Under the pieces are notes generated by a model that made no database searches, was not told the origin of the DNA, and was given only the letters and a program-made list of their open reading frames with translations. Of a DNA stretch of 64,000 nt, positions 1,721 to 57,631 are shown one piece after another (position 1 is the stretch's first letter; each line of letters starts with the position of its first letter). The translations under genes and the position numbers were made by a program. The DNA is taken from the IMG/VR virus record IMGVR_UViG_3300028886_000053, one strand, 5' to 3'. Source of the DNA: a virus (lineage: Duplodnaviria > Heunggongvirae > Uroviricota > Caudoviricetes).

Positions 1721-1793
1721 TCACCCACCTGGGGGTCGAACCCAGCCCTGCTGATTTAGAGTCAGCTGTCTTAAACCGCTTGACTAGTGGGCG
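1721..1793 (-). tRNA. tRNA-Sup(CUA): amber suppressor tRNA (anticodon CUA, reads UAG). D-arm resembles tRNA-Gln.
   Basis: Reverse complement is CGCCCAC-TA-GTC-AAGCGGTTTAA-GAC-A-GCTGA-CTCTAAA-TCAGC-AGGG-CTGGG-TTCGACC-CCCAG-GTGGGTG-A. The anticodon stem is a perfect 5 bp and the loop is 7 nt with CUA at positions 34-36. The D-loop AAGCGGU matches the bacterial tRNA-Gln D-loop (GCCAAGCGGUAAGGC). Confidence 0.8.
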
Positions 1794-2001: not shown

Positions 2002-2281
2002 TTGTAAACTGGCGCCCCACCTTTCCAGTTATGATTGCCGCCCTCAACAACTTTCGCCGCGCTATGACAATCCCTTTTTAAAATAAAGAGAGAAACGATT
2101 CATAAGAACTCTCCAATAATTTCCTTCAGAACCTTTGGCCTTTAGAGTTGCCAGTTCTTATCTAAATTATCCAACTCTCTAAATGTTATTCTATCGTTTC
2201 TTTTCAGTTTCTATCTCTTGTCGCTGAAACTGGAAAACATGACGGTCTTCCATATCGCACGTGCATTTGATACAGAATAAA

Positions 2282-2561
2282 TGGACTTGACGGGAGTCGA
2301 ACCCGTGTCCAAAATTCATACTCTATATAATTGTTTACGCTGTTTTTATATAAAATTAATCACAGTAAAGGTTTTCGGTTCCACCAGTTAGTTGTTTTTG
2401 AACCTCAATAGCTACCACTAACATCTTACTATTTTTTTGGTTACGGAATTAAGCCGCCATTTTATATTCAAAATTGTTGTTTATTTTTAATTTGCAGTGA
2501 TTACGTCACCAATCGAGCGCAATTATATATTTCAAAACCCTGTCGATACCTTTTCAAGCCC
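2282..2561 (-). ncRNA. ssrA: candidate phage-encoded tmRNA (ssrA-like)
   Basis: The 5' end GGGCUUG pairs with the 3' end CAAGUCC-A. The 5' region GGUAUCGACAGGG matches the tmRNA consensus GGNUUCGACNGGG. The 3' T-arm is ACGGGTTCGACTCCCGT. An internal frame AAC AAC AAU UUU GAA UAU AAA AUG GCG GCU UAA (NNNFEYKMAA-stop) resembles the ANDENYALAA tag. Confidence 0.5.
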
Positions 2562-3440
2562 AAAAAGGCGGCCGTCTACCTCCCCGACCGCAGGGTAACA
2601 ATCAAGTGAGTAGTTTCAACCTCACGTATCTGAGATGGATGTCAAACTTCCCTTGTTTTTTCCCTCTACACATTTCGTTTTATTGGTTAGCCTAGGCGAG
2701 GCGTTGGAAGGTGGGACTCCCTGTGTTCCATCTTTACCAGCTTTATTCTCTTCACGACTTTTACATCAAAATAAATTTGACTCTGTGCTTGTCTATTGAT
2801 TGTTAGTGGAGGATAGGGGTTATGCTCCCCTGACTGAACCTTGCAAGGGTTCTGTGTTCCTGATTATACCAATCCCCCATGTGCGGCCGTCGCCGCATTT
2901 TAGTTCTAGACATATATTAAGTATTGTACTGCTTGATTAAAATTCAAGTGCCTTATCCTTTTGGCTATTTTGCGAATGGTTGCAAAAACAGGATTCGAAC
3001 CTGTAAAACATACTATAAAGTATAATTGCTGTATATGTCTAAATACACCCTTAAGGAGTTGAACCTTATGTACCGCGTTATCAGCACGGCCCTCAAACCC
3101 TCGAGGACAAGGTGCTTAATAGGATTAAATAAGACTTACTAATAATTCCGGACTTACTAAAAAACCTTATTTAATCGCCTGATTTTTGGACTTATCTAGC
3201 CCTCACTAGAATATCACCGTGGGAGGATGTTCTCTTTTTTTCCTATTTGAACTATCTTTCTTCTACCTTGTCTTCCTTTATTCCAATCAGACACCTAAAT
3301 TATTCATTTAGGCTTTTCAAAGCTTTGTAACGGGGGATCAACCCGTTAGTTCCCCAGGAGAGAATCGCACTCACTCGAACCCAAAGGTACAGGTTTTACA
3401 GACCCGCCCGCCTACTTTAACGGCTTACTGAGGATTAAAA

Positions 3441-40790: not shown

Positions 40791-40823
40791 AAGACATAAG
40801 GATGAGAGAAAGGAGTTCCTATA

Positions 40824-42044
40824 ATGCAAGAAAAAGAAGATAACGTTATTCCTACTGAAGATGACGCTGTAGATACACAAGAGTTAAAACTTGATTATAC
40901 GATCTAGTCACCAGTGGAACGTAATGAATTAGTAAAAAAGATTGTAGAATCCTTACCTCCCTAGAAGTTAACGAATAGATACTTAGAAATATTAGCGGAT
41001 TATATTATATTTGCAAAAACGAAAGAATAGAGAAAAAAACAAGAGTCTATTAATACTGAAAATAGAATGATAACAATAAATAAACGGTAGACTTCATTTT
41101 AGGGACTAGTAGGAAAATTTGAAAATGGAGAAGATGGAGTATATAACTTATTTACAGAAGATAAGAACATTATCTTTACTCCAAAGATTTCAATTACAGA
41201 AGAAGATTTGGCGGAGATTCCAGCCTTACGAGAATTACGTGCAGCTATTGAAGAGGTTTAGAAACTTTAGAAAACAGCTCGTGGTAAACGTAAATATCTT
41301 CTTAAAAAACAAATTATTTAGATGCGGCAAGATCAGTATGTTATTAAAACTTCTTATAAACAACCGATCTTTTGTCTTAATGCCGTAAAAAATTTCAGTT
41401 CAATGAGTTTTGAAGATAACATTTCTATATCTCCAGATGGAAAAATAAAAGATAAGAGTTTAATATCTTTTATAAATCCTAAACATATCTCTGCTCTATT
41501 GAGAAATTATTCCCGATTAAAAGAAGATTGTTATGGAAAATTTTATACTGATGGATATTATATGATGGAAGTTTTAGATGAATTAGTGGACAAAGCTTTA
41601 AAAGAAAAATATCCTCTTTATTATAGTTTATTGATATATAAAATAGATGGGAAGTCTAATTTAGAAATTCAAAAACTATTAGAAGAAGAACATGGAATAA
41701 GACATTCAGTTGAATATATTTCTTCTCTTTGGCGAAATAAAATTCCAAAATTAATTGCAGAACAGGCCGAAATTGATTTTTTACATTGGTATTATTTAGA
41801 AAAAGAAAAAGGGAAATGGAAAAAATGTTCTCGATGTGGAGAAGTAAAATTAGCGCATAATAAATTTTTTTCTAAAAATAATTCTAGCAAAGATGGATTT
41901 TATTCAATCTGTAAATAGTGCAGAAATAAAAAGAAACGCATAACTCCTAAACCAGAAATTATAAAATATAGAGAAATTGAAAACGGAGTTGTAGTAAAGG
42001 AGGAGATATGGCGAAAAAGAAATGTAGCAAATGTTAGCGAGTAA
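40824..42044 (+). CDS. hypothetical late protein, TAG-recoded (about 9 in-frame TAG), C-terminal CxxC...CxxC zinc ribbon, ends TAA
   Basis: Single frame from ATG 40824 (frame 0) through standard-code fragment 41322..41918 to TAA at 42042-44. The C-terminus is CSRCGEVKLAHNKFFSKNNSSKDGFYSICK-Q-CRNKKKR. Confidence 0.5.
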
Positions 42045-43225
42045 TGGAGGATTTAAAATTTTATTCTAAAAAAAACGGAGATAAATTTGATATGTGCAAG
42101 TAGTGTTTAACTATGCACGTTGATAATTATAATGAAGATACTTTTTTATGGATAATAGAATAGGCAGATCTTCCTTGGGTACCTAGCGAATGGAACGCTA
42201 TTAGATAGAAATAGTATGCCAAAAAAGGCAGAAAAATGAATGGAATGAGTGTTGTCGGAAAATATTTTTCCAAAATGAGGTTAAATCAATGGAAGAAATA
42301 TAATTGGGCAACGAGTGCGGAAGCACAAGAGGAAGCTAATCTTAACAAGTAGTTTAAAGAAGAGCAACAAAAACAATTAGAGTAGAAGTTAAAAGAAGAT
42401 TTTGAAAAGGGTTAGATTACTTAGTCACAATATCGAACTTTAGTTTCTTCTAGTTTTCAGAAGTAGCATTAGTATATGATGCGGCCGGCCGGTTAGGAAG
42501 AGGACCCGGTTGGTAAAGATAATGCCTTTAGATAGGAATATTTCTTATCGGAAGAGGATTTACCCGATCCCGCAGCTGAATTAACAAAAGAAGATAAACA
42601 ATATTTGGCAATGAAATGGGGTCGAAATTATAAACCTAGTCAATGGTTATTGCTTGAAACCAAGTACACCGAAATGATGAATTCATTTGACATTCAGGAT
42701 GCAGATAGTAAAAATACATTAATGTTTATTTGTAAAACATATTTAAAAATGGATGAAGCAATTGATATAGGTGACGTTGAAAGTTATCAAAAACTATCCC
42801 GTGTCTATGATCAGTTACGTAAGTCTATGAAAGTAACGGCCGCGCAAAAGAAAGAAGAGAATAATTAGTTTATAGATTCAGTTGGCTAGTTAGTTGCCTT
42901 TTGTTAGAAACATGGACATGTGATACCTGAATTTTAGATAAAAGCTCCTCATGATATAGTTGATAAAGTCATAAATGATATGAAGGGTTATAATAGATCT
43001 TTGATTTATGAAGACAAAGCCCTTGCTAGACAAATCGAAGATTATATTAAAGAAGCGCGTGCGGCAGCTGCTAGAAAGAAAGACCGAGAATAGGCTAAGA
43101 AGAGAGGCTAGGATTATTATACAATTACAGATAAAGATATTTTAGATTATAAAGACTTCCTTCATAGTGAAAAAATATGGACAGAAAAAGAAATGAAGGG
43201 AGAGGATAACAATGAGTCTTAGTAA
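42008..43225 (+). CDS. late protein with N-terminal zinc ribbon, TAG-recoded (about 19 in-frame TAG). Possible terminase small subunit by position.
   Basis: ATG 42008 (SD AAGGAGGAG), MAKKKCSKC-Q-RVMEDL...DMCK-Q-CLTMHVD. The frame includes fragment 42605..42868 and ends TAG-TAA at 43220-25. It immediately precedes terL. Confidence 0.4.
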
Positions 43226-43560
43226 TATTTTAGATCAATATATTTAGCATGACACTAAAAAACAAGGTTTATCTGAAGAAAGGCTTCTTGATCAATTAGA
43301 CAATCTAAGATATTTAATTAGTTTTTTTAGAAAATATCCTGACCTTTTGGTAGACTATATGAAAGGACCAGATAGTACCTTCCATTTTTATTTTTATCAA
43401 AGAGTTTTCCTTAGAATAGTTATGCGGCACCGATACGTTTATGCAACGTTTCCGCGTGCTTACTCTAAATCATTTTTGTCAATGATGGCATTAATGTTGA
43501 GATGTATATTATATCCTGGGGCGCAATTATTTGTTACTACTGGTGGTAAAAGTATTATTT
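43212..43560 (+). CDS. terL: terminase large subunit, exon 1 (ATPase N-terminus with P-loop-like ATFPRAYSKS)
   Basis: Frame from ATG 43212 includes fragment 43347..43565 (MKGPDSTFHFYFYQRVF...ATFPRAYSKSFLSMMALM...VTTGG). The exon end is approximate. Confidence 0.55.
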
Positions 43561-44597
43561 TATAATTTTATAAAAAAGGGAGGAGCATTATGAGTGCAAA
43601 AAACGTCCTATATAATTTTGAAACGATTGATACAGAGGAAAAAGCTTATTGGTTAGGTTTTTTATATGCAGATGGTTCAGTTGGGTCTAAAGATGACCGA
43701 ATTGAATTAGGTTTAGCAGAAAGAGATTTTCATCATATTGAAAAATTTAGAGATTTTATTGGTATAAATAATAAAATTTCTTATCGAGAAAAAACAAAAT
43801 CATATCGTTACGCTTTTAAAAGTCAAAATTGTAAACAAGATTTAATTAGACAAGGATGTGTTCCTAAAAAATCTTTAGTTTTAAAATATCCTACTTATGA
43901 GCAAGTTCCTAAAGAATTAAGTAGACATTTTATTAGAGGGTATTTTGATGGAGATGGATGGTTTACAAACACAGAATCTTGTTTTCAAGTGGGAATTATT
44001 GGAACAGAAGATTTTATTAGGGGATTCCTTAATAATATAGATGATATAAATAAAGATAATAAAATATTTATTTGTCATCGAGAAGAAGGAGCTAAAAGAT
44101 ATGTTTTTGGAGCTTATCAAGATGTTTTAAATTTTTTAAATTGGATTTATCAAGATGCAACAATTTATCTTGATAGAAAATATGAACATTATTTAGATTT
44201 TATAAATAATGGAAGTAAATATCATAAAAATATAAAATAAAATTTGCCGTATAATATAGAAATATATTATATGATTATCGCGGAATTAAGCGGGAAGGCT
44301 GAAATGCTAATCTGAACCGAAGGCTAGTTAAAAAACTGGTCAGGGGCAACGCGTAGGAGGTGAAAAGATATAATCCTCCCAAGAGGCCGCGACACAAAGA
44401 TTTATAGAATCTTTTGAGATTATCTCACCAATAATCAAACCTAACGTTAAAACGAGGGTGAAAATGTACGCTGAGCTTACATGAATTAAAAAATGTAAGA
44501 ATTAAAGGATAAAAAACCTTTAAGATAACAAAACTGAAATAGCAGGCGGCTAGTATTACCGTGGCAAAGATAGAATAGATATGTAAGTTAATACCAG
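43561..44597 (+). other. group I intron 1 in terL carrying a LAGLIDADG homing endonuclease ORF
   Basis: An intact standard-code ORF is followed by a GC-rich structured core (gggaaggctgaaatgc...gtcaggggcaacgcgtaggagg) in an AT-rich gene. The terL frame resumes at about 44598. Confidence 0.5.
43590..44240 (+). CDS. LAGLIDADG homing endonuclease (two-motif, intron-encoded)
   Basis: ORF track, 216 aa. Motifs LGFLYADGSV and FIRGYFDGDGWF. No TAG. Confidence 0.75.
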   Translation: MSAKNVLYNFETIDTEEKAYWLGFLYADGSVGSKDDRIELGLAERDFHHIEKFRDFIGINNKISYREKTKSYRYAFKSQNCKQDLIRQGCVPKKSLVLKYPTYEQVPKELSRHFIRGYFDGDGWFTNTESCFQVGIIGTEDFIRGFLNNIDDINKDNKIFICHREEGAKRYVFGAYQDVLNFLNWIYQDATIYLDRKYEHYLDFINNGSKYHKNIK

Positions 44598-44880
44598 CTT
44601 TAAGTAATTAGATAAACTGGAATCGTGGTGTATCTAAAAAATCTAAGGATGATGTTAATTATGTATTTAAAAATGGTTCCGTTATAAATATCTTGGCTGC
44701 TAAAGAAAGCAGTAGAGGACAAAGACGTACTGGTGGATTAATGGAAGAATGTGTTTTAATTGACCAGACGGCTTTAAACGAAATTATTATTCCTACTACA
44801 AACGTAGATAGATTACTACCAGATGGAACACGACATAAAGAATAGATTATTAATAAGTCACAGATTTACATTAACTTTTT
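44598..44880 (+). CDS. terL: terminase large subunit, exon 2
   Basis: Frame reads ...VFKNGSVINILAAKESSRGQRRTGGLMEECVLIDQTALNEIIIPTTNVDRLLPDGTRHKE-Q-IINKSQIYINFFEQS with one TAG. Boundaries approximate. Confidence 0.45.
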
Positions 44881-45949
44881 TGAACAAAGCGTTATAAAAA
44901 TATGTGCTTAAAAATTATATATAATAGAACAAAAAAAGGAGGTTCTATTATGTATTATATTTATAAAATAGAAAATTTACAAAATCATAAAAAATATATT
45001 GGATTAACTAATAATATAGCAAGAAGAAGAGCTAGACATTTTACTGATTTAAGATGTAATCGACATGATAATGGTTTTCTTCAAAAAGAATTTAATATTT
45101 ATGGAGAAAATAATTTTTCTTTTGAAAAAATTTTTGAAGGAGATATTACAGAAAAAGAAATAGGAGAGAAAGAAAAAGAGTTTATTAAATTATATGATAG
45201 TTATAGAAATGGGTATAATCAAAATGAAGGTGGAAATTTTGGACCGTCTAATGGTGGAAGTCATTTAACGCAATCGGATATTTATAATATTTGTTCTGCA
45301 TTAGAATTTTGTTCTAGACCAGGAGGCGTGCTATCAGATATGTTTGAAGTTTCTTTAACTACTATTTCTAGAATAAAACAAGAAGTAAACCATAATCAAT
45401 ATATAAATGAATATAAAAATATGTCTTTAGAAGATCGAAAAGCTATATATAAAATATTTTGTGAAAGTTCTAATTTTTATGAAAAGAAAATTAAACAAAC
45501 TATTATAAAGTCTAAAAGACAGCTTACGAAACAGCAGGTTTTTATGATTTTATATAATTTTGAAAATAAAGTTGTTACTTACAAAAAAATGGCAGAAATT
45601 GTTGGAGTAGCAAGCACATATACTTTAGATTGTATAAAAAAAGGATTAACCTATAAAGATTATTCTTATGAATATAATCAACTTAATAACGAAGAAAAAC
45701 AAAAAATAGTGTCGTTATTCAGTAATGAATAATTGTAAGCCATTGAATTGCTGGGAACCCCTTATTAAAAGGGCAATCAGCAGCCAAGCTCTTTATAAGA
45801 GAAGGTTCAACGACTATCCTGAAAGGGAGTACACTCAAGCGAGTGGAAGCGGTGGCCCCCTACTTGAAAAAGAGGGTGAAGATATAGTCTACTCTGCATG
45901 TATATATAAAGATGCAGCAGTTCATAAGAGAACGCATATAGTTTAGCGA
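44881..45949 (+). other. group I intron 2 in terL carrying a GIY-YIG homing endonuclease ORF
   Basis: A HEG ORF is followed by a structured segment (gggaaccccttattaaaagggc...gagtggaagcggtggccccc). The terL frame resumes near 45950. Confidence 0.45.
44950..45732 (+). CDS. GIY-YIG homing endonuclease (intron-encoded)
   Basis: ORF track 44902..45732. The likely start is ATG 44950 after SD AAAGGAGG. Motif YYIYKIENLQNHKKYIGLTNN...R...H...E. No TAG. Confidence 0.7.
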   Translation: MYYIYKIENLQNHKKYIGLTNNIARRRARHFTDLRCNRHDNGFLQKEFNIYGENNFSFEKIFEGDITEKEIGEKEKEFIKLYDSYRNGYNQNEGGNFGPSNGGSHLTQSDIYNICSALEFCSRPGGVLSDMFEVSLTTISRIKQEVNHNQYINEYKNMSLEDRKAIYKIFCESSNFYEKKIKQTIIKSKRQLTKQQVFMILYNFENKVVTYKKMAEIVGVASTYTLDCIKKGLTYKDYSYEYNQLNNEEKQKIVSLFSNE

Positions 45950-47030
45950 ACTATATGGAATACAAGGAACAACGGCGGGTTGGAAGAATTCATTTGCGTA
46001 TGACAAATTAATAGAACTTTTAATTAGAAGTTTAATATAGCCTGATGAAGTTATGATAATGGGAGGAACTTATGAGACTCCTATTATTGAAGGATTGTTA
46101 AATGAAGACTTTGTATAGCAGTTAAAAATGGCTGGCACTTTCAATGAAGATTCATTTGATAGATAGTATAGAAGTATATGGTCGGGCGATGCAGAAAATG
46201 CGTTCTTCTCTGCCTAGAAATTTGACAAGTATAGAACACTTAGACAACCGTAGTACGAATATAGCGGCCGCACCAGTAAAAATGCTTACTATGTCATTGG
46301 AGTTGATGTAGGTCGTATTGGATGTACAACCTAGGCCTGTATTTTTAAGGTGACGCCGCAACCTCAAGGAGTTGCATTGAAGTCTCTTGTAAATATATAT
46401 ACTTATGAGGCATAGCATTTTGAATAGCAAGCTATAAATATTAAGCAACTGTTTTATAGATATAAAGCTAGATCAATTGCATTAGATACTAATGGTCTTG
46501 GAATAGGTCTTTTAGACTTTATGGTAAAGGCCCAGGAGACACCAGATGGATAGTATCTTCCACCTTTTGGTATTTAGAATGATGATTAGGGTATTTATAA
46601 GAAATATTTTAAAGGTGTAACAGATGTTCAAAAAGATGCTATTTTCCAAATTAAAGCTAATGCTCCTATTAATACATAGGCATATTCATTTGCTCAGACT
46701 CAAATGTCAAGTGGGAAGATTAAATTTTTAATTGATGAAGCAGAAGCAAAAGCTAAGTTAATGGAAACTAAACAAGGTCAAAACATGACGCCTGATAAGA
46801 GAAATGAGTATTTGAAGCCTTTTGTTCTTACTACTATTTTAAGAGAACAAACATTGAATCTCGTTGAAGATAACGAAGGTGTTAATATTATTTTAAAACA
46901 AGAGAATAGAGGTATTAAAAAGGATAAATTCTCTTCTTTTGTTTATGGATTATATTATATTAAACAATAGGAAGATAGAAGAAAAAAGAGAAAAGGAAGA
47001 GATATTAGTAAACTTCTCTTATTTTCTTGA
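45950..47030 (+). CDS. terL: terminase large subunit, exon 3 (RNase H-like nuclease domain), about 14 in-frame TAG
   Basis: Frame contains YYVIGVDVGRIG, DTNGLGIGLLD and KFLIDEAEAKAKLMETK, and includes fragment 46704..46970. If the TAG at 46968 is read as sense, the protein ends at TGA 47028-30. Confidence 0.55.
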
Positions 47031-47103
47031 GGACATTTTTTGAAAAGAAAAAATTATATTTTTTTAAATATAAATGTAAAACAGAAAGGAGAAATATATT
47101 TTT

Positions 47104-47463
47104 ATGAGAAGTTCACGAGCAGAAATAAAGATAGAAGAAATTTTGTCAAATGCAGGTCTTAACTTTAAAGAAGAGTATAGTTTTCCTGACTTAATAGGAC
47201 AGGGAGGTCATGCCTTAAGGTTTGACTTTGCTGTCTTTGATGATGATGATGAATTGGAATTTTTGATTTAGTATCAGGGAATCCAACATTATAAAGCAAA
47301 AAGTATCTTTGGCGGCGTTTCTGGGCTAAATAAGCAACAGTATTATGATATGCAGAAACGTTAGTATTGTAAGAAGCATGGGATTAAATTAATCTTAATT
47401 CCGTATTGGGACGAGAATTTAATTACATATGATTACATTATGGAAAAAGCGGATATTTTTTGA
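47104..47463 (+). CDS. DUF559-type (Vsr/restriction-endonuclease-like) nuclease, 2 in-frame TAG. One TAG sits at the conserved IE.DG glutamate.
   Basis: MRSSRAEIKIEEIL...YSFPDLIGQGGHALRFDFAVFDDDDELEFLI-TAG-YQGIQHY...YDMQKR-TAG-YCKKHGIKLILIPYWD matches the DUF559 pattern (ILDFYCPE..LAIELDGSQHY...YDQRR..WL...GI.VLRF). Confidence 0.55.
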
Positions 47464-47475
47464 TGAAAGGTTAAG

Positions 47476-49134
47476 GTGACTTCTTTGATAAATAGAGCAG
47501 CAGAAATAAGAAAACAAAATTTAATGCTAGAAGGCACCGGCAATGGGAGATTAGATTATTCAAAAATAAGAGTTGGAGCTAAAACACTTGAAGATGCAAT
47601 TTTAAATATTGGAGAATATAAAAGAATCAATCCTATTCTTGGTGATAAAAAAGAAGTATTAATGGCGATTAATACTGGTGATGTAGAAAGAATGAGATAG
47701 ATTTCTAATTTCTTTTATAAGACTAGTGGTATCTATGCTAGATTATGTAGATATATGGCATATTTATATAAATATGATTGGTTTATTACTCCATATATTG
47801 AAAATTGTGAAGGTTTACTTGATCAGGATAGCGGCCTGGGTGACGTCGGGGCAGGCTAGACTTAGGCAGATAATAAAGCCCGCAAAAAACAATTTGCTAA
47901 TTTCTTTAAAGTATTAAAATATTTTGAAGCATTTTAGGTAAAAAGATTTTGTGGTGAAGTTGCTCTAAAAGTCATCAGACATGGTTGTTACTATGGATAT
48001 TTAATTCCTAGACCAAATAAAATGACTATTCAAGAGTTGCCTATTAGATACTGTCGTACTCGTTATAAGGTTGACAATAGACCAGTTGTTTAGTTTAATA
48101 TGCACTATTTTGATGATCATTTCCATGATGAGAGACAGCGGCAAGCAATTTTAAAATTGTTCCCGCCAGAGTTTAAAAAGGGATATAATTTATATCGTAA
48201 AGGTAAATTAATGCCAACTTTTCCTGGTGATACTCCAGGATGGTATTTATTAGACCCTAAGAGTACAATTAAATTTAATCTTAATGATTAGGATTATCCA
48301 GCTTTTATTTCTGTTATCCCTGCTATTATCGACTTAGATAATGCTAAAGATTTAGATAGAAAGAAAATGGCTCAAAAGTTAATGAAAATTATTATTCAAA
48401 AAATGCCATTAGATAAAAATGGTGATTTAGTATTTGATATTGATGAAGTTGGAGAATTTCATAATAATGCAGTTAAAATGCTTACAAGAGCGATAGGAGT
48501 AGATGTTTTAACTACTTTTGCGGACGTTGATGTCGCTGATATGTCAGATCGAGGTACTACAACTACTGTAGATGAATTAGCAAAGGTAGAAAGAGGAGTT
48601 TATAATGAAGCTGGTGTTTCACAGCAACAATTTAATAGTGATAATAATACTGCTTTAAATAATTCTATTCTTAATGATGAAGCATCTATGTATAATCTTT
48701 TAGTACAATTTGAGTCGTTTTTAAATTTAATGCTTGAACAATTTAACAAATCTCCAAAGAAATGTTATTATCAAGCACAGTTTTTAACAACTACTATCTA
48801 TAATTATAAAGATTTAGCAAAGTTGTATAAAGAACAGGCGCAAATGGGATACAACAAAATGTTACCTCAGGTAGCACTTGGACAAACTCAAAGCTCAGTA
48901 TTAGCTAATGCGTACTTTGAAAATGATATATTAGATCTTGTCCGTGTATTTGTTCCTCCGCTTACTTCTAATACAATGAACGCTGAAGCACTACAAGCGC
49001 GGTCTGCGGCTACACGCGGAGGCTCGGGTCAAGCGGGAAATACTCCAGGTCAATCTGGAGAAGGGGCCGGCCGCCCTTAGAAATAGGATAATCAAAAAAG
49101 TGAAAAAACATTACAGAATAGAGAAAGTATGTAA
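47476..49134 (+). CDS. portal protein, TAG-recoded (about 8 in-frame TAG), GTG start, ends TAA
   Basis: One frame links fragments 47476..47700, 48100..48291 and 48367..49080, then continues through two TAGs to TAA 49132-34. Its position between terL and the scaffold/capsid genes supports the call. Confidence 0.55.
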
Positions 49135-49145
49135 GGGGGTAAAAT

Positions 49146-50534
49146 ATGAGTTTAGCGCATAAAAGTGTAGCGACGATAAAAAGTCCAGAGTTCATTAATC
49201 TTACTCCTCTTGATATTAATCCCTTAATGTCCGCATGTGAAATTAAAGTTTTTTATATTGGACAAAACCGTAATAAGAGTTTTATTTCTAAATAGGTTGC
49301 TACTTAGATGGCAAAGACTCTTAGAGGTGCTCCTATTGTTGGGTATTATAAACCAGATAAAGAGGATTTTACAGATCATGGTGAAGAAATAACGATTGAT
49401 GGGGATGGTGTTCATTTTAAAAATAACACTAAGCCATATGGATTTGTAGCTCCAGATGCGAAAGTCTGGTTTAAAGATTTTGAAGAGGAAGATGATTTTG
49501 GAAATTCCATAATTAGAACTTATCTAATGACCACTGGATATTTGTGGGAAGGTCAATTTGAAGAAGCTAAAAAAGTTTTTGAAGATGATGGAAAACCTCA
49601 TTCAATGGAATTAGATGAAAAAAGTTTAAAAGGACATTGGGCAACAAACCCAAATAATAATATGGAATTTTTTATAATTAATGACGCAATATTTGAGAAA
49701 CTCTGTATTTTAGGAGATGAGGTTGAACCTTGTTTCTAGGGTAGTGGTGTAACTGCTCCAGAGGTTAGTACAACCTTTTCTCTTGATGATAATTTTAAGC
49801 ATACTCTGTTCACTATGATGGAAGAATTAAAGTATGCTTTAGAAGGAGGCAATACTATGGCAAAAGTAGCTGAAGCTTCAGTAAATGAGACTGTTACTAC
49901 TATAGAACCTGAAGTAACAACAGAATTTACTGAGAATCAAGTTAATGAGAATGAGTCTTCATCTAGTGAGCAAGCGCCTGCTTCAGAATTTAAAAAGGAT
50001 GATGAAGAGGACAAAAAAGAAAAAGAAAATCCTTCTGAAAATGAGGATGATAAGAAGGATGAAGACAATGGCGGAGGTGCTTCTGATTCAGATGATGACT
50101 CTGCTAATGAAGAAAAGAAAGATGAAGAAGATAAGAAGAAGAAATTCACTGTCCTTGAACAGGAATATAATGAGTTGCAAACTAGTTATACTTCTTTGAA
50201 GGAAGAAGTTGAAGAACTAAGAACTTTCAAGAAAAAAATAGAGGACAAAGAGAAGGACGACCTTATTAAAGATTTCTATATGCTTTCTGATGAAGATAAG
50301 AAAGATGTTATTGAACATAAGAGTGAATATTCATTAGAAGATATTAAATCTAAATTAGCAGTGATTTGCTTTGAAAAGAAGGTCAATTTTAATTTAGACA
50401 CTTCTTCTGAAAATGAAGAATCAACAGTAGAAGAGGATGAAAATCCTGTTACTACTTTTGATATTAAGGCAACTGAAGATTCAACAGTTCCTGAATGGGT
50501 TAAGGCGGTTGAATCTGCAATGAATAGATATTAA
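49146..50534 (+). CDS. probable prohead protease/scaffolding protein (single frame, 3 in-frame TAG). The acidic C-terminal half is scaffold-like.
   Basis: Strong SD AAGGGGG before ATG 49146. The frame joins fragments 49308..49739 and 49815..50534. The C-terminal 240 aa is D/E/K-rich and coiled-coil. It could alternatively be two genes. Confidence 0.4.
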
Positions 50535-50551
50535 TTAGGAGGATACTTAAT

Positions 50552-51172
50552 ATGGCAAAAGAAAGAATCGGCTATGGACAAGTAGAACGCCAACACATGG
50601 CTGCTCCACATAACGGTCAAATCTATGCTCAACTTCCTGCTCTTAATGCTAACGGTACTCCAATCGCTCAGCTTGAGAATGGACAGTTTTTAAAATATGA
50701 TTATGCAAATGGTAAGGCTGGAGTTGGAACATCTGGTGATGGCAAAGAATGGTTCCTTGTTTATAATGAAGAAAAGTTATATGACGAGAGATACCAAAAT
50801 CATAAAGATTTTGCTATGAAGGCAGCAGATATGTCTGATGGTACTATCTATCCTAGACTTTTAAGAACCTTTGTTGGTGATATTTTCACAACAAATACTT
50901 TTAAGGGTCCTAAGGGTACTGTAACAGATAAAGAAGGTAAGATTGATGATATTCCGGATCTTGCTATTGGTGATTATGTAGTAATTGGTGATGATGGTTG
51001 GTTAGTAAAAGGTACGGGTACAGGAACTGATGGAGTAAATCCTCCAACTGGTACTGGTATTGTTTTCCAGGTTATTCCTCATTTTACACAAATGGGTATG
51101 GCGGCTGCTGATAGACCAGCTTATACATTACCTGATGGACAATGGGCTGTGAAGCTTCAAAGAATACGCTGA
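50552..51172 (+). CDS. head decoration / minor capsid protein (no TAG)
   Basis: ORF track, 206 aa. SD AGGAGG. Immediately upstream of the major capsid protein. Confidence 0.4.
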   Translation: MAKERIGYGQVERQHMAAPHNGQIYAQLPALNANGTPIAQLENGQFLKYDYANGKAGVGTSGDGKEWFLVYNEEKLYDERYQNHKDFAMKAADMSDGTIYPRLLRTFVGDIFTTNTFKGPKGTVTDKEGKIDDIPDLAIGDYVVIGDDGWLVKGTGTGTDGVNPPTGTGIVFQVIPHFTQMGMAAADRPAYTLPDGQWAVKLQRIR

Positions 51173-51188
51173 TAAGGAGGAAATAACG

Positions 51189-52307
51189 ATGGCTTTAGAT
51201 AGAAATCAACTTTTAGCATTAGCTAAGGCTACTGCACGTGCTTCATTAAATCCTTCAACTGCGTTCGCTTGGGGCGATAAGAAATTAACATTTGAAGCTC
51301 TTAATGAAGTTTTTCAAAAAGAAATGAATGAACTTGCTGGTACATACGCTTTGTACCGTGAGAATAAGAATACAATTTTCAGACTGATTGAAGAAGGTCT
51401 TGATGAAATCCTTCCTGCAAAGGTTATGCAGAATTATGGTCAGTTTGCTGATACTAAGACCTATGCACAAGGTGACAAGCCTGTGTTCCGTGTAAGAGTT
51501 AGTGAATACTCTAAGAAGAGAGCAAAGAGCTTTGTAACAAGAGTAGGTCTTGCTGGTAGATATGAGACATTCAAGCTTGATGGATACACAATGGAAGTCA
51601 ACATGGCTGCATACGGCGGAGCAGCTGAAATCGGCTTTGAGGAATTCCTTGATGGCCGTATTACAATGGCTGATGTTTATAATTTAGTTCTTGAAGGTCT
51701 TGATGAAGTAGTTTATAAAGAAATTGCTAAGGCAATGGAATCATTAGCAGACAGTACAAGTATTCCTAAAGCTAATAAGGTTAAGGGAAATAAATGGAAT
51801 GAAACTGAATTTGACCGTTTAGTTGCTACTGCTGATGTTTATGGCAAGAGTACAATTTATTGTACTTATGAGTTTGCAGCAACTATTCGCCCTGCAAATT
51901 CTGGTGACCTTTCTGATGGTATGAAGGAAGATTTATGGAATAATGGTTCTTTCAAGAACTATAAGGGACATACTATTATTGTTCTTCCTCAGAGCTTTGA
52001 GGATGCTAATAACTTAGTCAAAGTTATGGACCCTTCCATTGCTTGGATTATTCCTACTGGAGCAGAAAAACCTGTTAAGGTTGCTTTCGAAGGAAGCTCT
52101 GCTGTTAGAGAAGTGGAGAATGATGATTGGTCAAGAGAAATCCAGACTTATAAGAAAATGGGAGTTGCAGTTTATAATATAAATCCTGGTATTTGCGTAT
52201 TTAAGAATACTTCTCTTACAAAGGATAATTTACCTAGACTTACTGGCGCTAATGCTGCAACTTTTGATGCAAATACAAATTGGTACACACTTCCTGACAA
52301 TTATTAA
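51189..52307 (+). CDS. major capsid protein (HK97-fold-like), no TAG codons
   Basis: ORF track, 372 aa. SD AAGGAGG. Sits between scaffold and head-tail genes and is followed by a strong terminator. Confidence 0.65.
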   Translation: MALDRNQLLALAKATARASLNPSTAFAWGDKKLTFEALNEVFQKEMNELAGTYALYRENKNTIFRLIEEGLDEILPAKVMQNYGQFADTKTYAQGDKPVFRVRVSEYSKKRAKSFVTRVGLAGRYETFKLDGYTMEVNMAAYGGAAEIGFEEFLDGRITMADVYNLVLEGLDEVVYKEIAKAMESLADSTSIPKANKVKGNKWNETEFDRLVATADVYGKSTIYCTYEFAATIRPANSGDLSDGMKEDLWNNGSFKNYKGHTIIVLPQSFEDANNLVKVMDPSIAWIIPTGAEKPVKVAFEGSSAVREVENDDWSREIQTYKKMGVAVYNINPGICVFKNTSLTKDNLPRLTGANAATFDANTNWYTLPDNY

Positions 52308-52339
52308 TTTTATTAAGTAATATATTAAAAAAGAACTAT

Positions 52340-52388
52340 AAGGGCTTAAATATTATATAGGGTATAATGTTTAAGCCCTTTTTTTACT
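52340..52388 (+). terminator. rho-independent terminator after the major capsid gene
   Basis: Hairpin AAGGGCTTAAA...TTTAAGCCCTT followed by TTTTTTT. Confidence 0.65.
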
Positions 52389-52410
52389 AGAGATAAAAGG
52401 AGTTTTTATA

Positions 52411-52967
52411 ATGGATAGAAATACAATAATTAAAATTTGTAATAGAGATGACGCGGCAGTATTTTATGATATTCCAGAAATGAATGGATTACATAGAGTT
52501 TTTCAGCCAAATGAAGTAAAAGAAGTTACGTTAGGAGAACTTATTAAATTATCTTATGAACCAGGTGGAATGGATTTACTTAGAAATAATTTCATTCTCA
52601 ATAATAAAGAAGCAATTAATATGATTTTAGGAGAAGTTGAACCTGAATATAATTATACTCCAGTTGATATTAAAAATTTATTATTAAATGGCTCTTTAGA
52701 TGAACTTCTTGATTGTTTAGATTTTGCTCCAGAAGGAGTAATTGAAATTTTAAAAGATTTGGCAGTTGAGTTACCTTTAAATGATGTAGCTAAAAGAGAA
52801 GCTATTTTAAATAAAACTGGTTTTAATGTAACTAATGCAATTGAAATTAAAAAAGAGGTTTAGGCTGATATAGAAAAACCTGCGGCCGGTCCTATTAAGA
52901 GACGAGTTACAAAAAAGGCTTAGTCTAGTCCAGCCGAGGAAACCAAAGGCCGCCGCGTGATTAAATA
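52411..52967 (+). CDS. hypothetical head protein (1 TAG, ends TAA)
   Basis: ORF track 52411..52863 continues through a TAG to TAA near 52965. Confidence 0.4.
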
Positions 52968-52983
52968 ATAAATTAGGAGGTGT

Positions 52984-53538
52984 ATGATGGATGAGATGAA
53001 TTGTACACCTTTCTCTGTTGTTTATGACAGTTTTCTTTCAAAAATTACAGATGATATGTATATGGAATTAACTCCTTAGGATACTGATAAGATTTTATAG
53101 GAATTATTAATTTCTGCTTTACCTAAATTTGAATTTCCAAGACAGAATCTTTAGTATGAAGAAATGCCGATAGAAGGGGAATTTGATGAAATAGGAGAAC
53201 CATTTACAACACAATGTTTTGTAAATAAATTAACTCAATAGGAAGTAAATATAATTGCAACTTATATGATTGTAGAATGGTTAGGGCAGCAATTAGCTAC
53301 TATTGAAAATACTCGTATGAAATATAGCGGGAGTGATTTTAAATTCACCTCTCAGGCTAACCATATGCAAAAAATTCTACAATTAAAGAAAGATTACGAG
53401 AGAGAGGGATTCCACTTACAGAGACTATATAAAAGACGTAAGAGAGATCCTGAAAGTGGAATTTATAAATCAACAATTAGCTCTATAATGGAGAAACAAC
53501 CTAGAGGAGGAACTGGCGAATGGAACAAATGGTTTTAA
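52984..53538 (+). CDS. head-tail connector/adaptor-like protein, TAG-recoded (4 TAG)
   Basis: Frame from ATG 52984 includes fragment 53266..53538 and ends TAA. Confidence 0.4.
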
Positions 53539-53849
53539 CTTTAGGTATTTCTATTAGCAAGAGCGCAATAGATAATAATTTAAAAAGAATTATAAATCAA
53601 GTTTATAAATTACTTCCTTTAAGAGAAGAAGGAAAAAATTGGGAAAAACCGTTAGAAACTTTAATCGAGGAACTTGCGGGAATGGCTGATTTAATAGATG
53701 GCTAGGAAGAATTATTCTTTTCTATATTATGTAAAATGAAAGGATTGCTTAGTTTAGCTAGTGAACTTGATATGGTTACTTATCGAAGAACTATATTAGA
53801 ACTTCTAAGTTTACTAAGTGAGTTAAAAAGATATGTCTGCTAGAGATAA
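53520..53849 (+). CDS. hypothetical neck protein (2 TAG), ends TAA
   Basis: Frame 0 from ATG 53520 to TAA 53847-49. Confidence 0.35.
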
Positions 53850-53850
53850 T

Positions 53851-55137
53851 ATGCGGAAACGGTATCGGGCCGATTTAAATAAAAATCCTAGCCATTCATA
53901 TGATTTCGGTTCCGGTTTAGATAAAATGAGTAAACGGTTAAGTGTTTTTGGTGGTGAAGACCAATGGACGAGAATGAGATAGGATAAACTAAGAAGTTTG
54001 AAAAAAGCTTTATTAGCATCTTATCAAAGAGCAATCGTTCAAAAATATGATGTTAAAAAAGATAGTTTAGCAAATAATATTATTTCTATTATTACTTTAC
54101 TCCAAGATAATCAAGAGTTAAGTGATAATCAGAATAATATTTTAAAAACATTAGAAGATTAGTATACGAGTTTAGCTGTTATAGATGATAAATATTCAGC
54201 TAGGTATATTCAGAGCTTAGAAGAAATTGTTGATTCTCTTACTTCCACCGCTCCTATGTTTAAAGCTCTGATTAATCATGATAAATTAAAAGTGGATTAT
54301 GAAGATAAGATCCTTTCGATCCCCTTTAGGGAAGCACCGGAAGATAGTGAAGAATAGATAGATACTGATTTTCATAATGGGACTGTCTTTAAATGGGTCC
54401 ATGGTAATAAAGAAGAATGGACGCCAGACACATATTGGATTGTCTATATGCAGTATTCTGAAGAAACTGCTTATTTTAGAGCGGAAATTCGCAAAGCCGA
54501 TGAATAGATTTAGATTATTGTTATAGACGAAGATGGTAATGAAAATGCAGTTAGTTATAGAGGATGGATGACGGGACCAAATGAAACTACAGCTCTTTGG
54601 AATACAAAGCGTGGTGTTGTTTGGAACGATATGAATTATACCAAGTTATTATATATAACAAAAGATGAAGATACTTTAGCATATTTTCAACGCTTTGATA
54701 GGATAATAATTAATGGTAAACCCTGGGAAGTGCAAGCCTATAATGAAAATTATAGTACTAGTAAAACAGGGGATTTTAGTTCAGGTATTATAAGAGTGGC
54801 GTTAAAAGAAACATATACTTCTGCGGATCAGTTCGTTAAGGAAGTGAAAAATGCGGAAGCCGCTCAGATCTAGGCGGAGGCTGCCTATGATGCAGAACAT
54901 ACCTAGGCTAGAATTGATGGACCGGCCGCCGCACATCCTTACGATATATTAATATATAAAGCTAAAAATTATGAATAGCCGCAAGACTGGTTCGTTTCTG
55001 ATACCTCTCTTGTTAAAGTATTAGAGTATAATGAAGATACTTTAAAACTTGAGGTTATTGCTAAAAAGGCTAATAAAGAAGGTTTCCAAATTGGATATGG
55101 ATAGAATATTATTCAGATTCCTATTGAGCCTCTATGA
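53851..55137 (+). CDS. virion morphogenesis protein (about 429 codons, about 9 in-frame TAG), ends TGA
   Basis: Frame 1 from ATG 53851 includes fragment 54568..54873 and ends TGA 55135-37. Confidence 0.4.
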
Positions 55138-55154
55138 GATAAAAGGAGTTTATT

Positions 55155-57578: not shown

Positions 57579-57597
57579 TGAATGAAATGAATTAAAT

Positions 57598-57631
57598 GGG
57601 AAGGAAATGAATATTTCCTTCCCATTTTTTG
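57598..57631 (+). terminator. rho-independent terminator after the tail tube gene
   Basis: Hairpin GGGAAGGAAA-TGAAT-ATTTCCTTCCC followed by ATTTTTTG. Confidence 0.6.

What the first reader, a model, noticed from the sequence alone, without database searches (positions are those of the whole stretch)
2282..2561. Candidate phage-encoded tmRNA in the tRNA array
A roughly 280-nt minus-strand element begins GGGCUUG-AAAAGG-UAUCGACAGGG and ends with T-arm ACGGGUUCGACUCCCGU plus CAAGUCC-A, which pairs with the 5' end. Internally it carries an ORF-like segment AAC AAC AAU UUU GAA UAU AAA AUG GCG GCU UAA (NNNFEYKMAA-stop). This matches the pattern of tmRNA tags (ANDENYALAA-like, Y five residues from the end, AA-stop). 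A phage tmRNA alongside stop-codon recoding is notable. Ribosomes may stall when suppression is incomplete.
Basis: partly seen in the sequence, partly recalled or inferred. Interest (0 to 1): 0.7.

Follow-up and report, generated by a model that had tools for sequence, protein, structure and literature searches.

The report
Compact tmRNA in amber-recoded gut phage
The flagged 280-base element is a genuine ribosome-rescue RNA (tmRNA) carried in the tRNA cluster of a phage that reads the TAG stop codon as an amino acid; phage tmRNAs are already known, so this is a solid but not surprising find.

Summary
Confirmed. ARAGORN calls a tmRNA at exactly 2282-2561(-), and Rfam RF00023 scores 69.9 bits (gathering 47, E=3.7e-25). 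The window is a TAG-recoded phage related to phAss-1, with an amber-suppressor tRNA 490 nt downstream. I found four related tmRNAs, three of them in phage tRNA arrays beside a suppressor tRNA or in contigs with in-frame TAGs. A five-sequence alignment supports the fold: 90% of cells paired against 31-46% in slid controls, 27 pairs with compensatory changes, 0 of 500 shuffles as good. The fold has an acceptor stem with G3:U70, a T arm, a long helix 2, a hairpin where pseudoknot 1 normally sits, the tag ORF, a stop-codon hairpin and one H-type pseudoknot. PK3 and PK4 are absent. Relatives keep NNFEYK(M/A)AA through synonymous changes and a UAA-to-UGA stop switch, whereas ARAGORN's ORF is frameshifted. 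The resume codon is probably the second AAC (nt 84), giving (A)NNFEYKMAA. No SmpB or encoded CCA was found, so host factors are needed. The link to recoding is an association only. It is a new member of a known kind. Conserved leader and trailer RNA elements remain unexplained.

The parts
2282..2561 (-). tmRNA gene, 280 nt (tmRNA nucleotide p = window coordinate 2562-p). It ends with discriminator A and has no encoded CCA.
   Evidence: ARAGORN; Rfam RF00023 at 69.9 bits, E=3.7e-25; covariation-supported fold.
2555..2561 (-). Acceptor stem 5' strand GGGCUUG (nt 1-7). It pairs with nt 273-279 and includes G3:U70, the alanine identity pair.
   Evidence: 7/7 pairs in all 5 relatives, with C4:G to G:C compensation in MT835874.
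2282..2306 (-). T arm (nt 256-272, T loop UUCGACU), acceptor 3' strand CAAGUCC (nt 273-279) and discriminator A280.
   Evidence: T-stem pair 258:270 changes G:C to C:G in L164.
2516..2542 (-). Helix 2, 5' strand (nt 20-46). It pairs with nt 221-252 (window 2310-2341).
   Evidence: 9 of the 10 pairs of the central segment show changes on both sides across relatives.
2496..2510 (-). Hairpin at the position of pseudoknot 1 (nt 52-56 paired with nt 62-66, loop CGUAA).
   Evidence: G52:U66 in the window becomes G:C in L015 and L164, with compensations in MT835874 and L004. The alternative stem 48-51/60-63 is broken by U50 to C in L164. No pseudoknot could be demonstrated.
2449..2478 (-). Tag reading frame (nt 84-113): AAC AAU UUU GAA UAU AAA AUG GCG GCU UAA = NNFEYKMAA-stop. 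It is preceded by the A-rich linker ...AAAAAUAAAC (nt 67-83, window 2479-2495).
   Evidence: L015 has NNFEYKAAA-UAA and L164 has NNFEYKMAA-UGA; differences are third-position synonymous changes or a stop-to-stop change. The resume position nt 84 matches GCA at nt 84 in MT835874.
2443..2457 (-). Helix 5 hairpin (nt 105-108 GCGG paired with nt 116-119 CCGU), with the UAA stop in its loop.
   Evidence: Direct reading and the MFE/centroid fold. U119 to C in L015 and L164 turns G:U into G:C.
2387..2442 (-). Single H-type pseudoknot (PK2-like). Stem 1 is nt 120-123/158-161 plus nt 129-134/150-155. Stem 2 is nt 140-145/170-175.
   Evidence: All 6 pairs of 129-134/150-155 and 4 of 6 pairs of 140-145/170-175 show changes on both sides. 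Examples in L015 are U131:A153 to C:G and U142:A173 to C:G.
2342..2386 (-). Variable linker (nt 176-220) where PK3 and PK4 would be. It holds ARAGORN's rejected 'tag' GGTENLYCD.
   Evidence: nt 183-217 are 29% identical to L015 with a 9-nt indel. A 1-nt insertion in L164 frameshifts ARAGORN's ORF.
2562..2795 (-). Conserved ~230-nt 5' leader. It starts at a promoter-like TAGACA motif and ends in a strong GC hairpin (GCGGUCG...CGGCCGC) plus a U tract that directly abuts tmRNA +1.
   Evidence: Conserved in window, L015 and L164. The hairpin appears in the centroid fold. An internal hairpin GUGAG/CUCAC changes G:C to A:U in L015. No Rfam match. Function unknown.
2206..2281 (-). Conserved 76-nt 3' trailer with two hairpins, starting UUU directly after the discriminator.
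   Evidence: Nearly invariant in 3 loci, then conservation stops. RNAalifold finds two stems, with compensatory changes at 2 pairs of stem II. It is not HDV-like and has no Rfam hit.
1721..1793 (-). Amber-suppressor tRNA (anticodon CUA), 490 nt downstream of the tmRNA. The order tmRNA, tRNA-Val, Sup-tRNA is conserved.
   Evidence: ARAGORN and Rfam. The same order occurs in L015 and L164.
40806..58741 (+). Late or structural gene block that needs TAG read as sense (sigma-like factor, terminase, portal, capsid, virion proteins). This is context showing the phage is recoded.
   Evidence: ORF lengths under alternative codes; PHROG matches of TAG-to-Q translations; relatives L140-L156 show the same signature.

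Best explanation
The element is a functional, compact one-piece tmRNA (SsrA) encoded by a TAG-recoded (code 15-type) gut phage of the phAss-1-related clade. It is transcribed with the phage tRNA array. Its 5' end is most likely released by RNase P and its 3' end by cleavage after the discriminator A. Like all neighbouring phage tRNAs it lacks an encoded CCA and has a U-rich trailer, so host RNase Z-type processing and the CCA-adding enzyme are inferred. Host alanyl-tRNA synthetase would then charge it through the G3:U70 pair, and host SmpB and EF-Tu would deliver it to ribosomes stalled without a stop codon. Translation would resume at nt 84 and add (Ala)-NNFEYKMAA, ending at UAA. UAA remains a stop in the phage's code, and no relative uses UAG there. 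The tag's C-terminal hydrophobic-Ala-Ala would send the product to host proteases, and the ribosome would be recycled for phage protein synthesis. Shown here: tmRNA identity, the covariation-supported fold, the conserved tag frame, conservation at a syntenic site in related recoded phages, and the lack of a detectable SmpB. Inferred from established tmRNA biology: charging, SmpB dependence, tagging, proteolysis and the benefit to the phage.
For: 1. ARAGORN and Rfam RF00023 both call it.
2. The fold is supported by covariation in 5 related tmRNAs. 90.1% of cells are paired against 31-46% in slid controls, 27 pairs change on both sides, and 0 of 500 shuffles do as well. RNAalifold finds 22 compensated pairs.
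3. G3:U70 is invariant.
4. Constraint is selective. Against L015, nt 1-65 are 98.5% identical and nt 218-280 are 100% identical, but the linker nt 183-217 is 29% identical.
5. The tag frame is kept by synonymous changes and a UAA-to-UGA stop switch, and the stop sits in a hairpin loop.
6. The pre-tag context '...AAAC' followed by the resume codon is shared with relatives that have canonical GCA or GAC resume codons and tags ending in AA.
7. The order tmRNA, tRNA-Val, Sup-tRNA(CUA) occurs in 3 loci.
8. All 24 array RNAs listed by ARAGORN (23 tRNAs and the tmRNA) lack encoded CCA, and most have U-rich trailers.
9. Phage tmRNAs are documented (PMC7162821).
Against: 1. There is no expression or aminoacylation data.
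2. The resume codon AAC is non-canonical (usually GCN), so the first tag residue is assigned by homology only.
3. No true PK1 could be shown, and PK3 and PK4 are missing. From memory, PK1 can be replaced by a hairpin and PK2-4 are dispensable in E. coli; this is not tested for this RNA.
4. No SmpB was detected in the window or in the complete phAss-1 genome. Function therefore depends on compatibility with an unknown host SmpB.
5. A terminator-like hairpin lies immediately upstream, so the level of transcription into the tmRNA is uncertain.
6. The single-sequence MFE is no better than that of shuffled sequences (z=-0.44). This is expected for an AT-rich pseudoknotted RNA.
Confidence: 0.8

Rival explanations
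1. The tmRNA is specifically part of the code-switch machinery and is not a general rescue factor. Once the phage suppressor tRNA competes with release factor 1, ribosomes pause at UAG or read through host UAG stops into 3' ends. The phage tmRNA, co-located with the suppressor tRNA, clears these complexes and tags the aberrant products. This adds to the best explanation and does not exclude it.
For: 1. The tmRNA, tRNA-Val, Sup-tRNA(CUA) order is conserved in window, L015 and L164.
2. Every phage with this tmRNA family that could be tested carries a TAG-recoding signature: the window and the phage of L004/L018, which has a repeat protein with 13 in-frame TAGs.
3. The recoded phAss-1 carries a different, unannotated tmRNA.
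4. The non-recoded relative Enterococcus phage EF1 has 16 tRNAs but no tmRNA.
5. No tag in the family ends in UAG.
6. tmRNA is known to act at unresolved UAG codons in RF1-less E. coli (PMC6207430).
Against: 1. The sample is tiny and phylogenetically non-independent, because relatives were found by similarity to this tmRNA.
2. Phage tmRNAs also occur in phages not reported as recoded (PMC7162821).
3. In phAss-1 the tmRNA is not next to the suppressor tRNAs.
4. In AT-rich genomes read-through usually meets another stop quickly, so few non-stop complexes are expected (inference).
5. Termination by RF1 at in-frame UAG does not create a tmRNA substrate.
Confidence: 0.2
2. The RNA is a decoy. It binds host SmpB, AlaRS or ribosomes to block or redirect host trans-translation, for example to protect phage proteins from tagging, and does not itself tag proteins productively.
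For: 1. No phage SmpB was found, so it must compete for the host protein.
2. The pseudoknot content is reduced and the resume codon is non-canonical.
Against: 1. The tag frame is under purifying selection: synonymous changes, a stop-to-stop switch and the AA terminus retained in three relatives. A pure decoy would have no need for this.
2. The stop codon remains in the helix 5 loop, as in working tmRNAs.
Confidence: 0.05
3. It is a decaying captured host ssrA gene or the remnant of an integration (att) site, with no current function.
For: 1. tmRNA 3' ends are common prophage attachment sites (own knowledge). Several IMG/VR hits to the 3'-end pattern look like host tmRNAs on short contigs.
2. 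The region nt 176-220 evolves freely.
Against: 1. The gene is full length with both ends.
2. The tRNA-like domain and helix 2 are 98-100% conserved, while internal and flanking spacers diverge to 29-66% identity.
3. Compensatory changes maintain the helices.
4. The tag frame is maintained.
5. It sits at the same array position in three phages.
Confidence: 0.03

Closest known systems
Bacterial one-piece tmRNA (SsrA, Rfam RF00023)
   Same: It has a tRNA-like domain with a 7-bp acceptor stem, G3:U70, a T arm and the GG..UCGAC D-loop analogue. It has a long helix 2 and an A-rich linker with U-A at -5/-4 before the resume codon. The short tag ends in hydrophobic-Ala-Ala, the stop codon sits in the helix 5 loop, and there is a downstream H-type pseudoknot. 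It matches the full-length Rfam model above the gathering score.
   Different: It is 280 nt against about 360 nt. Only a hairpin occupies the PK1 site, and it has one downstream pseudoknot where the standard form has three. The resume codon is AAC (Asn), not GCN. CCA is not encoded. It is carried by a phage inside a tRNA array.
Phage-encoded tmRNAs of huge phages (Al-Shayeb et al. 2020, PMC7162821) and, from my own knowledge, cluster C mycobacteriophages such as Bxz1
   Same: A tmRNA gene carried by a tailed phage that also encodes many tRNAs. The presumed role is to keep ribosomes available during infection.
   Different: The genome is about 140 kb and not above 200 kb. No phage SmpB was detected, whereas huge phages are reported to carry tmRNA and SmpB. 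The host phage is TAG-recoded, and the tmRNA lies one tRNA away from the suppressor tRNA.
Unannotated tmRNA of phage phAss-1 (OQ749652: 92139-92577, minus strand)
   Same: It is the closest named phage relative (capsid 48% identical) and is also TAG-recoded. Its Rfam tmRNA hit scores 77.9 bits. It has G3:U70, the pre-tag '...GAAAC' context, a tag ending in AA and a UAA stop.
   Different: It is 439 nt, GC-richer and encodes CCA. Its tag is long (DNSNVIVMVHPALISAMMEVRQAA). It lies at a different genomic position outside the tRNA array, and its sequence aligns only in the tRNA-like domain. This suggests a separate acquisition or very fast divergence. ARAGORN misses it, and the describing paper does not mention it.
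Reduced tmRNAs of endosymbionts and organelles (own knowledge, not tested here)
   Same: Loss of pseudoknots while the tRNA-like domain, helix 2 and tag are kept.
   Different: Those are cellular genes shrinking under genome reduction. This one is a phage gene whose relatives range from 270 to 345 nt.
Theta (minimal HDV-like) ribozymes at tRNA 3' ends in recoded gut phages (PMC10879173)
   Same: A conserved structured RNA lies directly 3' of a CCA-less tRNA-like gene in a recoded gut phage.
   Different: The 76-nt trailer here starts with U and not G. It folds into two independent hairpins and shows no nested double pseudoknot. It has no Rfam ribozyme hit at E<=1. It is not filed as a theta ribozyme.

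Membership tests
tmRNA (SsrA, RF00023) | Covariance-model score above the curated threshold over the full model | tested here: met
   69.9 bits against a gathering score of 47, E=3.7e-25, model positions 1-374. ARAGORN also calls it a tmRNA.
tmRNA (SsrA, RF00023) | The 5' and 3' ends pair into a 7-bp acceptor stem with the G3:U70 alanine identity pair and discriminator A | tested here: met
   GGGCUUG pairs with CAAGUCC, followed by A. All cells pair in 5 relatives, G:U is invariant, and pair 4 shows C:G to G:C.
tmRNA (SsrA, RF00023) | T arm with a tRNA-like T loop, and the D-loop analogue GGnnUCGAC | tested here: met
   ACGGG-UUCGACU-CCCGU, with G:C to C:G compensation in L164. GGUAUCGAC aligns to the model consensus.
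tmRNA (SsrA, RF00023) | Long helix 2 joining the tRNA-like domain to the mRNA-like domain | tested here: met
   22 pairs in three segments. 9 of the 10 pairs in the central segment show changes on both sides.
tmRNA (SsrA, RF00023) | Pseudoknot PK1 between helix 2 and the resume codon | tested here: inconclusive
   A 5-bp hairpin (nt 52-56/62-66) is supported. The only candidate second stem (48-51/60-63) is broken in L164 and is sterically implausible. Only a 2-bp C47-G48/C57-G58 contact remains possible.
tmRNA (SsrA, RF00023) | Short internal reading frame that starts without an initiation codon after an A-rich linker, ends in Ala-Ala, and has its stop in the helix 5 loop | tested here: met
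   NNFEYK(M/A)AA is conserved in 3 relatives through synonymous changes and a UAA-to-UGA switch. The context '...AAAC' followed by the resume codon is shared with GCA- or GAC-resuming relatives.
tmRNA (SsrA, RF00023) | Resume codon GCN (Ala) in most members | tested here: not met
   The codon at the homologous position is AAC in window, L015 and L164. This is a frequent feature, not a defining one; from memory, non-Ala resume codons exist.
tmRNA (SsrA, RF00023) | Three pseudoknots (PK2-PK4) downstream of the tag in the standard form | tested here: not met
   Only one H-type pseudoknot (nt 120-175) is supported by covariation. nt 176-220 is a fast-evolving linker. From memory, reduced forms are known in the family.
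tmRNA (SsrA, RF00023) | Alanylation, SmpB binding and trans-translation activity | not testable with these tools
   Biochemistry is required. No SmpB gene was detectable in the window or in phAss-1 (tblastn; Pfam of neighbouring proteins).
Permuted (two-piece) tmRNA, RF04321 | Acceptor piece encoded upstream of the coding piece, with a score above threshold | tested here: not met
   Only 28 bits against a gathering score of 47 at 2449-2679. The standard one-piece tRNA-like domain is complete.
Theta / HDV-like ribozyme (considered for the 3' trailer at 2206-2281) | Cleavage-site G1, P1 of about 7 bp, nested double pseudoknot and a catalytic C in J4/2, within +/-5 nt of the tRNA 3' end (PMC10879173) | tested here: not met
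   The trailer begins UUUAUUC. No P1 partner was found by eye. RNAalifold gives two separate hairpins. No ribozyme family appears at E<=1. The RNArobo descriptor from the paper was not run.
Code 15 (TAG-to-Gln) phage, phAss-1-like clade | In-frame TAG in conserved late genes, plus a suppressor tRNA(CUA) | tested here: met
   Terminase, portal and other late ORFs are restored only with TAG as sense. tRNA-CUA lies at 1721-1793. 17 capsid-related contigs show the same signature. Gln identity of the suppressor was not established: its best non-suppressor match is tRNA-Gln at only 67%.

The most novel reading that the evidence does not exclude
The tmRNA, its conserved ~230-nt leader that ends in a terminator-like hairpin, and its conserved 76-nt two-hairpin trailer form one regulated module with the adjacent amber-suppressor tRNA. 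Under this reading the phage co-deploys ribosome rescue with the TAG code switch. It would clear ribosomes that stall at or beyond UAG while the suppressor tRNA and release factor 1 compete, and it would tag the resulting aberrant proteins with a phage-specific degron (NNFEYKMAA) that begins at a non-alanine resume codon.
Probability: 0.15. Interest if true: 0.7.

Novelty: new member of a known kind. Interest (0 to 1): 0.35.

Why it matters
1. It shows that an abundant clade of TAG-recoded gut phages carries its own ribosome-rescue RNA, placed one tRNA gene away from the suppressor tRNA that changes the code. The clade includes the published phAss-1, where the tmRNA is unannotated.

2. If the association holds in a phylogenetically controlled survey, trans-translation would become part of the toolkit for switching genetic codes during infection. 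This is plausible because tmRNA is known to act at unresolved UAG codons in RF1-less E. coli (PMC6207430).

3. There is a practical annotation point. ARAGORN, the tool most phage pipelines use, mis-assigned the tag in all three clade members and missed the phAss-1 tmRNA altogether. The corrected tag, (A)NNFEYKMAA, gives a concrete peptide to look for in gut metaproteomes.

4. The RNA is also a natural example of a pared-down tmRNA, with a hairpin at the PK1 site and a single downstream pseudoknot.

Tried and rejected
1. ARAGORN's tags (GGTENLYCD in the window, GEVKKQLSGGLKKTKTFTLTA in L015, GGTEKPLL in L164) are rejected. They lie at nt ~177-206 in the least conserved segment, which has a 9-nt indel in L015 and a 1-nt frameshifting insertion in L164.

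2. An alternative very short tag, GCA AAU UAA directly after the PK1-site hairpin, was considered because substitutions at nt 66, 69 and 72 are spaced by three. It is rejected as less likely. It leaves no spacer after the hairpin, U66-to-C is explained by pairing with G52, and relatives place the resume codon after '...AAAC'.

3. My first helix models for the 3' domain (132-137/193-198, 158-162/181-185, and 151-156/176-181) were dropped. The covariation-supported pseudoknot replaced them.

4. A theta or HDV-like ribozyme reading of the 3' trailer and a permuted-tmRNA reading of the 5' leader are both not supported.

5. Small ORFs in the leader and the trailer are rejected. All differences between relatives are nonsynonymous, and some are compensatory in hairpins.

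6. The bacterial-genome scan with the 3'-end pattern returned mostly archaeal tRNAs and said nothing about host origin.

7. Four attempts to pull more relatives from IMG/VR found nothing or only a short contig: the exact 5' 24-mer, the tRNA-Phe 27-mer, and the neighbouring protein as anchor. Only the degenerate tag pattern worked.

It found no hit. Sensitivity is limited and only 64 kb of the genome is available.

9. The single-sequence MFE z-score is uninformative.

Full report
**Observation.**
- ARAGORN calls a tmRNA at precisely these coordinates.
- The Rfam tmRNA model RF00023 matches 2279-2561(-) end to end at 69.9 bits (gathering score 47, E=3.7e-25).
- The element lies inside a minus-strand array of 23 ARAGORN tRNAs at 363-11489. 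The array includes an amber-suppressor tRNA(CUA) at 1721-1793 and a ROOL RNA at 6109-6707.

**What the window is.**
- GC content is 33.8%.
- Under the standard code the plus-strand genes at 40.8-58.7 kb are fragmented. Reading TAG as sense restores long ORFs.
- With TAG translated as Q, these ORFs match PHROG families for a sigma factor, large terminase, portal and virion protein.
- The capsid-like protein is 48% identical to that of phage phAss-1, a published 136-kb code-15 human-gut phage, and 37% identical to Enterococcus phages such as EF1 (PMC10607447).
- Seventeen capsid-related IMG/VR contigs (63-90% identity) all show the same TAG-recoding signature.

**Relatives of the tmRNA.** Pattern searches found four related tmRNAs.

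| Source | Length | Setting |
|---|---|---|
| L015 (9.6-kb metagenome contig) | 270 nt | Same gene order as the window: Leu-Leu-Leu-Phe-Tyr-...-tmRNA-Val-Sup(CUA)-Ser-Ser |
| L164 (60.5-kb IMG/VR contig) | 276 nt | Same gene order as the window |
| MT835874 (human faecal phage scaffold) | 298 nt | Inside a tRNA array |
| L004/L018 (146-kb viral contig) | 345 nt | Inside a tRNA array |

- The L004/L018 phage is itself recoded. A leucine-rich-repeat ORF next to its tmRNA has 13 in-frame TAGs. One sits at a repeat position where another repeat has a CAA/CAG glutamine.
- phAss-1 carries a very different, unannotated 439-nt tmRNA (Rfam 77.9 bits). ARAGORN misses it and its paper does not mention it.
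- The non-recoded relative Enterococcus phage EF1 has 16 tRNAs but no tmRNA.

**Anatomy.** I wrote a structure on the five-sequence alignment A7, including one pseudoknot, and counted pairs.
- 90.1% of cells form standard pairs, against 31-46% when the partners are slid by 1-3 columns.
- 27 of 59 pairs show changes on both sides.
- None of 500 shuffles reaches any of the observed measures.
- RNAalifold independently recovers 49 pairs, 22 of them compensated.

The supported parts, in tmRNA numbering (nt p = window coordinate 2562-p), are:

| Part | Positions | Note |
|---|---|---|
| Acceptor stem | 1-7 / 273-279 | G3:U70 invariant |
| D-loop analogue | about 12-20 | GGUAUCGAC |
| Helix 2 | 20-27 / 245-252, 33-42 / 229-238, 43-46 / 221-224 | Three segments |
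| Hairpin at the PK1 site | 52-56 / 62-66 | No pseudoknot shown |
| Helix 5 | 105-108 / 116-119 | Stop codon in its loop |
| H-type pseudoknot | 120-123 / 158-161 and 129-134 / 150-155, crossed by 140-145 / 170-175 | Single downstream pseudoknot |
| T arm | 256-260 / 268-272 | G:C to C:G in L164 |

- A genuine PK1 could not be shown. The only candidate second stem is broken in L164.
- PK3 and PK4 are absent. nt 176-220 is a linker that is 29% identical between the window and L015 over nt 183-217.
- In contrast, nt 1-65 and nt 218-280 are 98.5% and 100% identical.
- This pattern is selective constraint, not recent common descent alone.

**The tag.** ARAGORN's tag (GGTENLYCD, nt 177-206) lies in the unconstrained linker. 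It is disrupted by a 9-nt indel in L015 and a 1-nt insertion in L164.

| Source | Codons | Peptide |
|---|---|---|
| Window | AAC AAU UUU GAA UAU AAA AUG GCG GCU UAA | NNFEYKMAA |
| L015 | AAC AAC UUU GAA UAU AAA GCU GCG GCC UAA | NNFEYKAAA |
| L164 | AAC AAC UUU GAA UAU AAA AUG GCG GCU UGA | NNFEYKMAA |

- The differences are two synonymous third-position changes, one Met-to-Ala replacement and a stop-to-stop switch.
- The codon just upstream (AAC or AAU) is in frame, so sequence alone cannot fix the start.
- In MT835874, L004 and phAss-1 a canonical resume codon (GCA, GCA and GAC) follows the same '...AAAC' context. In MT835874 it falls at nt 84, the same index as the window's second AAC.
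- I therefore assign the resume codon to nt 84 (window 2478-2476).
- No tag in the family ends in UAG, which fits a code where UAG is sense.
- From my own knowledge of E. coli SsrA, the U-A at -5/-4 and a tag ending in hydrophobic-Ala-Ala match the frame-setting and ClpXP-degron features. This was not tested here.

**Maturation and partners.**
- None of the 24 array RNAs listed by ARAGORN (23 tRNAs and the tmRNA) encodes CCA, and most have U-rich trailers.
- The tmRNA is therefore probably processed like its neighbours by host enzymes and completed by a CCA-adding enzyme. This is an inference.
- No SmpB was detectable in the window, in the complete phAss-1 genome or in the related loci.
- The RNA should therefore depend on host SmpB, AlaRS and EF-Tu.

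**Flanks (unexplained).**
- The ~230 nt upstream (2562-2795) are conserved in all three syntenic loci. They contain a hairpin with a G:C-to-A:U compensation and end in a strong GC hairpin plus a U tract that abuts tmRNA +1.
- The 76 nt downstream (2206-2281) are almost invariant and then conservation stops. They fold into two hairpins, the second with compensatory changes at two pairs.
- Read as ORFs, both flanks show only nonsynonymous differences between relatives.
- Neither flank matches any Rfam family at E<=1.
- The trailer lacks the features of the theta/HDV-like ribozymes described at tRNA 3' ends in recoded gut phages (PMC10879173).

**Mechanism and rivals.**
- The best-supported reading is an ordinary trans-translation RNA that the phage supplies to keep ribosomes free during infection. 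This is the role proposed for tmRNAs of huge phages (PMC7162821).
- A more specific coupling to amber recoding is attractive. The evidence is the conserved tmRNA-Val-Sup(CUA) order, recoding in every testable carrier, absence in non-recoded EF1, and the experimental role of tmRNA at unresolved UAG codons (PMC6207430).
- That coupling rests on a handful of related genomes found by similarity to this one. I rate it 0.15-0.2.
- The conserved tag frame and the compensated helices argue against the decoy, relic and att-site readings.

**Novelty.**
- Phage tmRNAs are known, and I found no paper in the library that links them to recoded phages.
- This is a new, compact member of a known kind. It has a non-alanine resume codon, a mis-annotated tag and unexplained conserved flanks. 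Interest is 0.35.

Noticed in passing
window 6109-6707 (-): A full-length ROOL RNA (RF03087, 296.8 bits) sits inside the tRNA array. The whole gene is absent at the syntenic site of L015, where L015 position 827/829 joins window 6748/6096. It therefore behaves as a presence/absence cassette.
   Followed up: partly
window 2206-2281 (-): A 76-nt trailer directly after the tmRNA is nearly invariant in three phages. It has two hairpins, one with compensatory changes. It matches no Rfam family and does not look like a theta/HDV-like ribozyme. Its function is unknown.
   Followed up: partly
window 2562-2795 (-): A ~230-nt leader conserved in three phages starts at a TAGACA promoter-like motif. It ends in a terminator-like GC hairpin plus U tract immediately before tmRNA +1. 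It could be a separate small RNA or a regulatory leader.
   Followed up: partly
window 2807-2878 (-): A tRNA-Ala(UGC)-like gene has G3:U70 but an aberrant T loop (AGCAUAA). ARAGORN and the default Rfam pass miss it; the sensitive pass finds it at 43.9 bits. L015 has a normal tRNA-Ala and a tRNA-Ile at this place.
   Followed up: partly
window 528-600 (-): ARAGORN reports a tRNA with an 8-nt anticodon loop (anticodon 'UAGG'); Rfam scores it as a tRNA at 48.3 bits. It could be a quadruplet-reading or otherwise unusual decoder.
   Followed up: no
window 4773-5495 (-), 973-1395 (-), 9051-9560 (-): Mobile-looking nuclease genes lie inside the tRNA array. One is a GIY-YIG endonuclease with 4 in-frame TAGs, absent from L015. 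The other two are paralogous PD-(D/E)XK (PDDEXK_5) endonucleases.
   Followed up: partly
L002 42139-42577 (-) = OQ749652.1 92139-92577: The published phage phAss-1 has an unannotated 439-nt tmRNA (Rfam 77.9 bits, encoded CCA, probable tag DNSNVIVMVHPALISAMMEVRQAA). ARAGORN does not detect it.
   Followed up: partly
window 18005-18562 (-) and 17438-18001 (-): A HAD domain of the 'Swiss Army Knife' RNA-repair type (PF18143) lies next to an isochorismatase/nicotinamidase-like protein. This hints at RNA repair and NAD salvage functions near the RNA gene array.
   Followed up: no
window 3041-3012, 2795-2768, 1918-1890, 1875-1847 (-), and repeats near 10659, 10219 and 673: A short promoter-like motif (TAGACA / AAGACA, 16-18 nt spacer, TATAxT) recurs through the array and is shared with L015. 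It may mark phage promoters that divide the array into several transcription units.
   Followed up: no
L018 minus strand, 1712-3568 in reverse-complement coordinates (same phage as L004): A BspA-like leucine-rich-repeat ORF of 618 codons has 13 in-frame TAGs. One lies at a repeat position where another repeat has a CAA/CAG glutamine, which supports TAG read as Gln in that phage.
   Followed up: partly
window about 21000-40000: There are few long ORFs under any stop-codon assignment. Many of the plus-strand ORFs listed there are low-complexity and look spurious. The coding content of this stretch was not worked out.
   Followed up: no
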